From assembly GCA_951406725.2 (NCBI GenBank), contig OX597817.1, positions 146,568,001 through 146,632,000 on the forward strand: a DNA stretch of 64,000 nt, read 5' to 3'. The position numbers were made by a program, and so were the translations under genes. The notes under the pieces are model-generated. The model did no database searches, had not been told where the DNA came from, and worked only from the letters and a program-made list of their open reading frames with translations. The stretch comes from Octopus vulgaris. Its lineage: Eukaryota. This document shows positions 45,219-51,772 of this stretch, piece after piece (position 1 is the first letter of the stretch; every line of letters starts with the position of its first letter).

Positions 45219-48200
45219 TTAGAAATTGGTGTATGGTCTCCTAGTAGTGAATTTAGGATTTTGTAAGTTCCTTTCCACGCGATGAGGCAATGGGAAGCGG
45301 ATTTTGGCATTCTGCAAAAGAAAAGACAAACATAAGATGCTTTGCAAACATATAAGTCAAGCGCTGCCACAACCATTTATTCATTCTCTAGATCCTCACA
45401 AAAGGCTGAAGTAGATTACACACACACACTTCTGAGACAAATATCACATCCAACAAATGATTAGAATGCATCCCACCACCAAAATAAATAATCGAATTTC
45501 ACTTACATGGAACTGCTTAATGTAAGCTCTTCTGCATTTCTTGGCTGGCACAGTTTCCACTCTAATGATTTGGATAGCTGAAGGCCTGGCACGATGCCTA
45601 GCTCCCATATCACGGTCTAAAGGCAGAAATAAATCATGATTTAATTTCAATAAATAAAAGAAATATATGAGCTGTAATCTTCAAAACAGATCAACCAAAA
45701 TCCCTCTTTGTTTCACTAACATTGGGAAAAGAATCTCCACTTACAATCAATACATTTAACATTTTTCAAACTAAGTATCATGAATTCTACAACTGTTTCA
45801 GAAAATCAGCTTTTTGATATCCACTTTGCAAGCTAGGATGGATTTTATGGCTGGATGTCTTTCACAATGCCAACCATGCTGTGCTCTTTTTCGCTTTATG
45901 ACACTGGCACTAGCAAAGTCACTAACATGCACGACAAAAAATTTCCTCAACTGAACAGGAAAGTGTTTGAGAGGAAGAAAGGTATTCTCATGTCAGGTGT
46001 TTTGTTATAGAAACAAAAAATGGTGGTGACTAGACCCCAGAGTAAGAAACAGAAGCGTAGTAATAAACTGAATGTAACACAAGTAACCAGTCACTGGAAG
46101 GTGCCGCACCCCCAGTTGAGACATTCACAGGTAATAGAAAAACAATGTCATAGCCATTAACTTTCTGAGTCTACACCAGTGACCAAAATAGAACAGCTAT
46201 ATTACTATTGCACACATTTCTGACACAGGGAAATATAAAGAAATCCCCATGTAAACGGTTAGAGTGCATGAATCCCATCCACAAGATCCTAAATTAAAAA
46301 AAAAGAACATCAACCAAAGTACTTGCAATGCTGGAGAAAAACTTTCATGCAGTAATTCACAAATTTAGTGACAGGACAGAGACAACACTAATAGCAAGAA
46401 TTATCCTGTTGAAACATTTGCAAAAACTAACACTAAAACAATTAGTGTGAGTGTGTGTATATGTATGTATATATATGTACAAAGGTAGTCAATATTAAAT
46501 TTATTGTAGAATACATATTCCAGAAAGTTTAGAAGTAACTAATAAAGGAAGGCCTGAAGCCAACACCCACACCAGCTTGAATTCAATATCTTCGAAAAAT
46601 AATTCGCTATCTTCAACCTCATTAGTCATTGGATAAGCTAAATAAATTAAAAATTGCTGTAACTAGAAAAATGAATTCCTAAATGAGCAACAACTGCAAA
46701 ATATTGAAGTCACCTTTGAAAAGCAAGAAAGACCAAACCACTTTCAACATACCAGCATGGAAAACATGCTTATTATACTAAAGAATACTACAACAGCAAC
46801 TACTCTTCACTACAGCTGTTTCTTAACAGAAAGAACTAAGAGGTAATTAACTGAATATCAAGCTCTGTTACCATATTTCTGTTGAACTGCACTGCCCTTG
46901 TTTGAATTTTGATGCCAAGTTATTCAGGTAACTTTAACCCTTTAGTGTTCAGATTACTCTGTCAAATATAATGCTTTTTCAATCACATTGTTTTGAATTA
47001 ATCCTGCATTATCTTGTAGCTCTGAGAATTTGATGATGTGATGGTTTATTTTGAGGATGTCATTGTAGGATATGAGTGAGAGGCCAGATCTAGATGGTTT
47101 GAACATAAAAGAAGTAGAAAATTTGGGCCGGATATGGCCGGTTTAAATAGAAAATATTTACCACAGAAAGAGAGTGCACCAACCAAGTTGCTACCAAGAG
47201 ATACTACTTAAAATGACCAGGAAAAGATGGAGTTGAGGAATATTTAAGTCATAACAACAGTATCAAACACAAGGAAGAAAGAGCTTGTATGTAAGGTACA
47301 AACAAAATGGACTGGTGTTCACTGACCAATTGAAAACAATTCTCGAACACCATCAGGACAGTAACAATTAGCAAAGAAAATATTTGCATTACATTCAAGA
47401 CAAACTTCAGAATAGCTATGAAGAAAAGCAATGTGTTATTAAGGAAATAGGCTAGGCAAAGGGTAAATTAACTGACTAGATCCTTAGACCAGGATGGTAC
47501 AATCCTACCCTGCTCCTAGGTAGACAAGCCAAAACTTACAGCCATTTTTCACTCTTCACACTCTGATCAAGATATGGATAAGTATAAAGTTTATCGAAAA
47601 CAAATATTGAATAGTGCACAAAACTGCAAAGTCACTGATATTTCTCCAGAGCACAAACCAACTAAAAAACACACACACACACATATTTCTTTATTGCCCA
47701 CAAGGAGCTAAACACAGAGGGGATAAACAAAGGGACTAAGTCTACTACATCGACCCCAGTGCGTAACTGGTACTTTATTTATCGACCCCGAAAGGATGAA
47801 AGGCAAAGTCGACCTCGGCGGAATTTGAACTCAGAACGTATCGACAGACGAAATACAGCTACGCATTTCGCCCGACATGCTAACGTTTCTGCCAGCTCGC
47901 CGTTAAGACATTCACAGATAATAGAAAAACTATGTCATAGCCATTAACCCTCTCGGTCTACACCAGTGACCAAAATAGAATAGCTATATTACTATTGCAC
48001 ACATTTCTGACACAGGGAAATATAAAGAAATCCCCATGTAAACGGTTAGAGTGCATGAATCCCATCCACAAGATTGAAGGTGACTTCAATATTTTGCAGT
48101 TGTTGCTCACTTAGGAATTCATTTTTCTAGTTACAGCAATTTTTTTTTTATTTGGCTTATCCAATGACAGCAAATTATTTTTTCGAAGATATTGGATTCA

Positions 48201-51200: not shown

Positions 51201-51772
51201 TAAATTACTATCTTTACAAATAGGGCATAAAACAAAACCAATTTTCTTCGTGGGTGTATCAACCTAATTCAATCCCGTAAATTTGTTAACTTAAGAGTGA
51301 AACGACCAGGTTGAATTTATTGTAGCACAATTTTTCTGACATCAACAATATTTTTAAACTGCTGAGTAAAGGGACATGTGCGTAGGGAAAACGACCGATA
51401 GAAAATATAGTTAATTGTACATTAACAACAGAAAGGCTATGGTTGAATAAAAAATAAAACACGTAAGACTAATGAATAGGTTTGGGAACGAATATCCCAC
51501 AGCATTTCTCGCAAATATACATTTTTGCTTCTGAATATTTGGAACCATTCTGCCATGTGGCTACAGCGCCATTTTGATGAAGGAACCGCGAGAAAACCAA
51601 GGAATTTATCGCTAATAGGTCATCTTCACAATATTTACTGTACAATAGATAGGCTGAAGCGGTTAATTAATCTGCGATTGTTCCATTAAAAGTATATTTA
51701 AAGTGGGAAACGTAGGAAATAATGAAGGAAAGAAATATTTTTCGAGGAGGTTACCTGACCACGGGCTCTCAT
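45219..51772 (-). CDS. RPL18A: 60S ribosomal protein L18a (eL20), complete, 176 aa; exons 51755-51772, 50990-51169, 48282-48411, 45507-45616, 45219-45311
   Basis: Spliced translation [19 protein letters not shown]...AKSRFWYF...[58 protein letters not shown]...[15 protein letters not shown]...[10 protein letters not shown]; all introns GT-AG; 531 nt in total. Confidence 0.97.
46143..46269 (-). ncRNA. Candidate box H/ACA snoRNA, family A copy 1 (RPL18A intron 3)
   Basis: Hairpin UGCAC...GUGCA, H box AUAGUA, hairpin AUAGCUGU...AUGGCUAU, ACA plus 3 nt; 127 nt; sense to host gene. Confidence 0.75.
47930..48056 (-). ncRNA. Candidate box H/ACA snoRNA, family A copy 2 (RPL18A intron 3)
   Basis: Near-identical to copy 1; the differences preserve 3' hairpin pairing (UUUUGGUC/GACCGAGA). 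Confidence 0.78.
49635..50000 (-). mobile_element. tRNA-head SINE family 1, CpG-rich (young) copy in RPL18A intron 2
   Basis: Retains CpGs that other copies have lost. Confidence 0.85.
50079..50209 (-). ncRNA. Candidate box H/ACA snoRNA, family B copy 1 (RPL18A intron 2)
   Basis: Hairpin GCACA...UGUGC, H box ACAAUA, hairpin UCAAC...GUUGA, ACA plus CCC; about 130 nt. Confidence 0.75.
51252..51383 (-). ncRNA. Candidate box H/ACA snoRNA, family B copy 2 (RPL18A intron 1)
   Basis: Same architecture; A-U to G-U and stem-extending substitutions relative to copy 1; 3' end about 82 nt upstream of the 3' splice site. Confidence 0.8.
51566..51576 (-). promoter_or_regulatory. YY1/Pho-type site CAAAATGGCGC in RPL18A intron 1
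   Basis: Consensus match downstream of the TSS, common in ribosomal protein genes. Confidence 0.55.

What the first reader, a model, noticed from the sequence alone, without database searches (positions are those of the whole stretch)
46143..51383. Four unannotated-looking H/ACA snoRNAs (two duplicated pairs) in RPL18A introns
Seen in sequence: two ~170-190 bp direct duplications (about 46120-46287 = 47908-48074, and 50050-50239 = 51222-51423). On the host strand their cores fold as hairpin-ANANNA-hairpin-ACANNN of 127-132 nt, and differences between copies keep the stems paired. Established: ribosomal protein genes host intronic snoRNAs, and human RPL18A hosts SNORA68. Inference: neither family resembles SNORA68 as I recall it, so the host may have acquired and cis-duplicated different guides. 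Both A copies share one intron, departing from the vertebrate one-per-intron pattern.
Basis: partly seen in the sequence, partly recalled or inferred. Interest (0 to 1): 0.75.

Follow-up and report, generated by a model that had tools for sequence, protein, structure and literature searches.

The report
Duplicated H/ACA guide RNAs inside RPL18A
Four short elements in the introns of a ribosomal-protein gene are two duplicated small RNA genes that likely guide pseudouridine marks on ribosomal RNA; one pair is predicted to hit the same two sites as frog SNORA67, and the other pair shares one intron, so it could also yield a longer RNA with a guide at each end.

Summary
Two 95%-identical duplications lie in RPL18A introns 1, 2 and 3 (minus strand), and each unit was found only twice in the 2.8-Gb genome. 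Their 128-131 nt cores have hairpin-H-hairpin-ACA anatomy and no Rfam match at the gathering score. Against this genome's own rRNA, family B's two pockets rank first of 1,417 uridines at the 18S sites equal to human Psi1445 and Psi1347, the pair that Xenopus SNORA67 guides. The second match needed a relaxed folding filter. Family A's 5' pocket makes 11 Watson-Crick pairs around the 28S uridine equal to human U4180, unmodified in human and frog; its 3' pocket is unresolved. The SNORA68 target uridine is a C here. A relative's contigs show one A copy with A1's flanks and intact 5' guides, so A2 is likely the newer copy. Two guides in one intron could give a 1.9-kb SLERT-like RNA, untested. No mature RNA or modification was shown. 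Verdict: new members of a known class, with a minor, testable twist.

The parts
51755..51772 (-). RPL18A coding exon 1 (MRARGQ)
51252..51382 (-). B2, predicted H/ACA snoRNA in intron 1; H box 51323-51318, ACA 51257-51255; 5' end approximate
50990..51169 (-). RPL18A exon 2
50079..50208 (-). B1, predicted H/ACA snoRNA in intron 2; H box 50149-50144, ACA 50084-50082; 5' pocket 50202-50195 + 50163-50160 pairs with 18S U2190 (human 1445); 3' pocket 50133-50123 + 50100-50096 pairs with 18S U1854 (human 1347)
49640..50000 (.). dispersed repeat next to B1 (15 further blastn matches in the window)
48282..48411 (-). RPL18A exon 3
48077..48267 (-). inverted-repeat arm just after the intron 3 donor, adjoining A2; likely the derived arm
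47930..48057 (-). A2, predicted H/ACA snoRNA in intron 3, likely the newer copy; H box 47995-47990, ACA 47935-47933; 5' pocket 48046-48040 + 48009-48006 pairs with 28S U3926 (human 4180)
47680..47901 (.). dispersed repeat abutting the 3' end of the A2 duplicate (6 further blastn matches in the window; the label SINE is recalled, not tested)
46511..46716 (+). second arm of the inverted repeat, in the arrangement also seen in organism C
46143..46270 (-). A1, predicted H/ACA snoRNA in intron 3, likely the ancestral position; H box 46208-46203, ACA 46148-46146; 5' pocket identical to A2's, 3' pocket altered
45507..45616 (-). RPL18A exon 4
45219..45311 (-). RPL18A coding exon 5 to the stop codon

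Best explanation
The four elements are likely intron-encoded box H/ACA snoRNA genes in two locally duplicated families, predicted to guide rRNA pseudouridylation after release from RPL18A introns. Shown: the duplications, boxes, spacing, host-strand folding and base pairing to this genome's rRNA. Inferred: after splicing, debranching and trimming, dyskerin RNPs assemble on each core. Family B would convert the 18S uridines equal to human 1445 (5' pocket, 4+8 pairs, 14 nt from the H box) and 1347 (3' pocket, 5+11 pairs, 16 nt from ACA), working like Xenopus SNORA67. Family A's 5' pocket would convert 28S U3926 (human U4180; 4+7 Watson-Crick pairs, 14 nt). A's 3' pocket most likely aims at 28S U4172/U4173 (human 4415/4416) in A2 and is altered in A1; this step is weak. 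A2 and the inverted arm likely arose in one recent local duplication.
For: Anatomy and folding. 5 of the 6 sub-threshold Rfam hits on B1 and A2 are H/ACA families on the host strand. B 5' pocket: rank 1 of 1,417 uridines, shuffled targets as good in 4 of 200 and 12 of 500 with the pocket fixed by the fold. B 3' pocket: rank 1 of 1,417, 10 of 200. Both sites are mapped pseudouridines in vertebrates, and Xenopus SNORA67 guides both (PMC6984369 supplement). Chicken U67 uses its 5' and chicken ACA4 its 3' hairpin for these sites (PMC2653536); ACA4's pocket has the same 16-nt spacing (read by eye). A 5' pocket: 4 of 500 with the pocket fixed. In organism C (3 runs, 3 studies) the 5' hairpin plus H box of A has 1 listed change in 68 nt, in the loop; the two 30-nt flanks differ at 12 of 60 by my count (Fisher p 0.004-0.012 for core versus flanks).
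Against: No mature RNA, dyskerin binding or pseudouridine was shown. B's 3' pocket has a weak upper stem: it was missed and recovered only after I saw it by eye and relaxed the energy filter; B's 5' target was also not top. With loose geometry A's 5' match is not significant (27 of 200) and ties with 28S U3910. Human U4180 is unmodified in human and Xenopus. Whole-core conservation against intron 2 is not significant (A p = 0.15, B2 region p = 0.22). A1 folds only weakly better than shuffles (14 of 200). No Rfam SNORA67 match at E 10.
Confidence: 0.85

Rival explanations
1. A2 and A1 are not both released as ~130-nt RNAs. Trimming of the intron 3 lariat stops at A2's 5' end and A1's 3' end and gives one 1,915-nt H/ACA-ended RNA (48057 to 46143), like SLERT. 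This can coexist with the best explanation.
For: Both copies lie in one intron. Two snoRNAs in one intron give sno-lncRNAs, and H/ACA ends suffice (PMC11028025 passages; PMC4234469 passages).
Against: No RNA evidence. The arms are predicted to form 185 pairs around A2, which could invite cutting. That fly introns release several guides singly is recalled (Huang 2005, not held). The arrangement looks recent: organism C shows one copy.
Confidence: 0.25
2. Family B descends from the resident SNORA68-like RNA of RPL18A, and its 3' hairpin shifted register to 18S-1347 when the 28S target became C. The host kept and re-aimed a guide rather than gaining one.
For: B's 3' hairpin brackets the human-4393 site with 5+5 pairs at 14 nt (shuffled hairpins as good in 29 and 7 of 2,000). 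That register folds better than the 1347 register (B2 -11.8 versus -7.7 kcal/mol). Human RPL18A hosts SNORA68 (PMC3511933 table).
Against: The base there is C in 3 of 3 copies, so the pairing cannot be functional now. The 1347 pairing is longer and matches chicken ACA4's geometry. 8 hairpins and 7 sites were tested, so one such match is a modest signal. No Rfam SNORA68 match.
Confidence: 0.2
3. One copy of each pair is a silent or decaying duplicate, for example A2 trapped in the double-stranded loop, or A1's 3' hairpin lost.
For: Four clustered changes remove A1's pairing to 28S U4172/U4173. B1 has a lower-stem mismatch and an alternative fold. A contig of organism D joins A1's downstream flank, one A and the A2-type arm, as a single-copy haplotype or a collapsed assembly would.
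Against: All four keep both boxes and identical 5' pockets; A2 keeps its two-hairpin fold inside the predicted loop.
Confidence: 0.3
4. The elements are neutral intronic duplications or repeat fragments whose boxes and pairings are chance.
For: H and ACA motifs are short in AT-rich DNA; 20 such architectures occur in the window; no Rfam match.
Against: Only two genome matches each; strand-specific folding; both B pockets land on the two sites of one known guide.
Confidence: 0.06

Closest known systems
Xenopus SNORA67 (U67, Rfam RF00272)
   Same: Two-hairpin H/ACA guide for the 18S sites equal to human 1445 and 1347, as predicted for B (PMC6984369 supplement).
   Different: No RF00272 match at E 10; chicken U67 is hosted by DKC1, not RPL18A; homology is not shown.
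SNORA4 (ACA4) / yeast snR83
   Same: 3' hairpin guides 18S-1347, with 16-nt spacing by eye.
   Different: Its other hairpin does not guide 1445; chicken host is EIF4A2; no Rfam hit on B.
SNORA68 (U68, RF00263)
   Same: Same host gene in human; B's 3' hairpin can still bracket its site.
   Different: Its target U4393 is C here; no RF00263 match; A and B have other best targets.
SLERT and other sno-lncRNAs
   Same: Two H/ACA units in one excised intron.
   Different: SLERT arises by exon skipping and from two different snoRNAs; here two paralogs share a constitutive intron and an inverted repeat brackets one. No such RNA was observed.

Membership tests
Box H/ACA snoRNA | Two hairpins, ANANNA hinge, ACA 3 nt before the predicted end | tested here: met
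   All four; B1's 3' hairpin needs a constrained fold.
Box H/ACA snoRNA | Bipartite pocket pairing round a target uridine 14-16 nt from a box | tested here: met
   Met for A 5', B 5' and B 3' pockets; unresolved for A 3'.
Box H/ACA snoRNA | Sense orientation in a host intron | tested here: met
Box H/ACA snoRNA | Conservation of boxes and guides above flanking intron | tested here: inconclusive
   Significant for A versus its flanks and for its 5' hairpin; not for whole cores versus intron 2.
Box H/ACA snoRNA | Stable ~130-nt RNA bound by dyskerin | not testable with these tools
   Only assembled contigs were available.
SNORA67 (RF00272) | Guides 18S-1445, and 1347 in Xenopus | tested here: met
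   Predicted pairing for B.
SNORA67 (RF00272) | Scores above the Rfam gathering threshold | tested here: not met
   No hit at E 10 locally or among 40 genome candidates scored. B works like SNORA67 but is not filed as a member.
SNORA68 (RF00263) | Guides 28S U4393 | tested here: not met
   The base is C in 3 of 3 copies.
SNORA68 (RF00263) | Scores above the Rfam gathering threshold | tested here: not met
sno-lncRNA (SLERT type) | Two snoRNAs in one intron | tested here: met
   A1 and A2 in intron 3, 48281-45617.
sno-lncRNA (SLERT type) | Accumulating non-polyadenylated RNA with snoRNA ends | not testable with these tools
   No raw reads were offered.
High-copy dispersed repeat | Many genomic copies | tested here: not met
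   2 matches each for A, B and the arm; the tool warns counts are lower bounds.

The most novel reading that the evidence does not exclude
A recent duplication turned RPL18A intron 3 into a two-guide unit with its own processing switch. It yields a 1.9-kb H/ACA-ended RNA unless the ~190-bp stem round A2 is cut or edited, and family A writes a 28S pseudouridine that human and frog lack. This would be an invertebrate sno-lncRNA caught at birth.
Probability: 0.15. Interest if true: 0.65.

Novelty: new member of a known kind. Interest (0 to 1): 0.38.

Why it matters
It gives testable rRNA pseudouridine predictions in a lineage whose H/ACA guides Rfam does not cover. If B is related to SNORA67, the 1445+1347 pairing that PMC6984369 lists as antisense-element shuffling in Xenopus may be the older state. 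Loss of the SNORA68 target uridine alongside other guides in the same host is a clear case of guide and target turnover. The A2/A1 intron is a natural test of how this lineage processes two snoRNAs from one intron.

Tried and rejected
Rfam at gathering score: 0 matches in the window; at E 10 over 44000-54000, 22 weak matches, none on a core on the host strand. Expression: no RNA holder listed on record. Contigs of guessed RNA runs cover B2 and A but run past the core ends, so they say nothing about mature RNA. Metagenome search with exon 2 gave 2 loci that read as intronless coding sequence, no use for introns. Three pocket scans missed B's 3' target. A 3' pocket alternatives, 28S U1389 for A2 (3+10, 4 of 200) and U4830 for A1 (3+11, 1 of 200; human 4975), were not preferred because they melt the lower stem and are not shared by both copies. 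U6-86 fits B's 3' pocket with 3+8 pairs, but the perfect match came from one U6 variant; 13 of 15 further U6 copies carry G there. U1, U4, U5 and minor snRNAs were not scanned. The second-ranked H/ACA-like fold at 5457 lies in dispersed repeat sequence. A genome-wide search with my covariance models of A and B was not possible, so remote paralogs remain open. Earlier findings of this scan: none.

Full report
Setting. The window is G000:C4:146568001-146632000 in a 2.8-Gb genome. RPL18A lies on the minus strand with coding exons 51772-51755, 51169-50990, 48411-48282, 45616-45507 and 45311-45219. Exon 3 matches PF01775; exon 2 gave no Pfam hit.

Observation. The two duplications are real and 95% identical. 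B2 is in intron 1, B1 in intron 2, and A1 and A2 share intron 3. Genome searches returned 2 matches each for A, B and the arm described below; the tool calls such counts lower bounds. Rfam gives 0 matches at gathering score. Narrow scans of B1 and A2 give 6 sub-threshold hits, 5 of them H/ACA families on the host strand. The cores fold better on the host strand (z -1.68 to -3.04) than on the other (-1.14 to +0.11). Of 20 H/ACA-like architectures in the window, A2, A1 and B2 rank 1, 3 and 4 and B1 is missed. The cores differ at 6 of 128 columns (A) and 7 of 131 (B); most keep pairing, but not all.

Targets. I took 18S, 28S, 5.8S, U2 and U6 from the same genome and scored 1,417 uridines. Human numbers come from the rRNA alignments in the supplement of PMC6984369 (parts 1-3 of 12 read, plus row searches; main text seen as passages). 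B 5' pocket: 18S U2190, human Psi1445, 4+8 pairs at 14 nt, rank 1, shuffled targets as good in 4 of 200 and 12 of 500 with the pocket fixed; a stricter geometry ranked it third. B 3' pocket: 18S U1854, human Psi1347, 5+11 pairs at 16 nt, rank 1, 10 of 200. I found this pairing by eye and had to relax the upper-stem filter; searches missed it. With the sites fixed after the fact, 0 of 2,000 shuffled hairpins matched either as well. The decisive point is that the supplement lists Xenopus SNORA67 as guide for exactly these two sites. In chicken, U67 uses its 5' hairpin for the first and ACA4 its 3' hairpin for the second (PMC2653536, passages and supplement rows).

Family A. The 5' pocket, identical in A1 and A2, makes 4+7 Watson-Crick pairs round 28S U3926 at 14 nt. 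This is human U4180, shown as unmodified in human and Xenopus. It is significant with the pocket fixed by the fold (4 of 500) but not with loose geometry (27 of 200, tie with U3910). The 3' pocket is unresolved. In A2 its 3' strand pairs 7-8 bases upstream of 28S U4172/U4173 (human 4415/4416; Xenopus shows Psi at the latter), ranks 12 and 7. Two of organism C's changes open this pocket and, by my reading, improve that pairing. A1 has lost it.

SNORA68. Human RPL18A hosts SNORA68, target 28S U4393 (PMC3511933 table passage). Here that base is C in 3 of 3 28S copies, and RF00263 and RF00272 found nothing at E 10 among 42 and 40 candidates scored. B's 3' hairpin can still bracket the site with 5+5 pairs, so ancestry from a SNORA68-like RNA stays open.

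Relatives. I laid 5 of the 24 listed runs, all contigs. Organism C (3 runs) shows one A copy with A1-type flanks on both sides and one arm in the 46511-46716 arrangement, so A1 is likely ancestral and A2 plus the second arm derived. C differs from A2 at 9 of 168 aligned bases, 7 listed: one in the 5' hairpin loop, three that keep stem pairs, one in the 3' hairpin loop and two at the pocket edge. The 30-nt flanks differ from A1's at 12 of 60 by my count (p 0.004-0.012). Against intron 2 (40 of 398), the 5' hairpin plus H box is more conserved (p 0.018) but the whole A core (p 0.15) and the B2 region (p 0.22) are not. One search left 28 difference rows unshown, so B could not be analysed by position. 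B1 and B2 both occur in organism D, B1's flank in organism B, and B2 in organism C. One D contig joins A1's downstream flank, A and the A2-type arm, which is either a one-copy haplotype or an assembly collapse.

The missed feature. Arms at 46511-46716 and 48077-48267, 96% complementary in two blocks, are predicted to form 185 pairs in the pre-mRNA with A2 folded normally in the loop. Standard trimming of an intron with two snoRNAs yields a sno-lncRNA (PMC11028025, passages and introduction part 1; PMC4234469 passages), here 1,915 nt. Endonucleolytic release is the alternative (PMC10557570 passages). Which applies is untested. That fly introns often hold several H/ACA guides is recalled from Huang 2005, which was not held; PMC13228274 passages mention clusters only by gene.

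Print. Searches for snoRNA with octopus (58 papers, 20 listed), RPL18A with snoRNA and pseudouridylation (15, 13 listed), SNORA68 with RPL18A (4), helix 81 (1) and mollusc terms (0) showed no description of these RNAs in the listings I saw. I did not see the genome's annotation, and bioRxiv supplements, which are closed, could list such loci. PMC1821038 and PMC10227372 were seen as passages only.

Verdict. Real, probably functional H/ACA guides of a known class (0.85). B works like Xenopus SNORA67 without passing its Rfam model; A has no known counterpart for its 5' target. Interest 0.38.

Noticed in passing
L008 28S position 4150: The uridine that SNORA68 modifies in vertebrates (human 4393) is C, and the base before it G, in 3 of 3 28S copies examined.
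   Followed up: partly
PMC2653536 supplement, GGoACA1: The chicken 'orphan' H/ACA RNA in RPL18A carries, by eye, a 3' pocket for the human-4393 site, so it may simply be chicken SNORA68.
   Followed up: no
window 13724-15610, minus strand: A 628-aa stop-to-stop frame that reads like a LINE reverse transcriptase (recognised by eye, no family scan).
   Followed up: no
window 13137-13377 and 32993-33233: A 241-nt inverted pair, 99% complementary, 19.6 kb apart; perhaps two young copies of one repeat.
   Followed up: no
window 44581-44663, minus strand: Weak C/D-box hit (snoU30, 27.2 bits, gathering 45, E 0.17) downstream of the RPL18A stop codon; probably chance.
   Followed up: no
L016 (U6 copy): The top-scoring U6 locus has A where 13 of 15 other copies have G, next to U86; this makes a perfect match to B's 5' guide strand.
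   Followed up: partly
window 50990-51169: Exon 2 is 180 nt with phase 0 ends; skipping it would keep the frame and put B2 and B1 in one lariat, as in SLERT. No skipping was looked for directly.
   Followed up: no
window 50846-50921: A 25-bp inverted repeat in intron 2 near the donor site; organism C contigs replace its middle and a D contig changes strand there.
   Followed up: no
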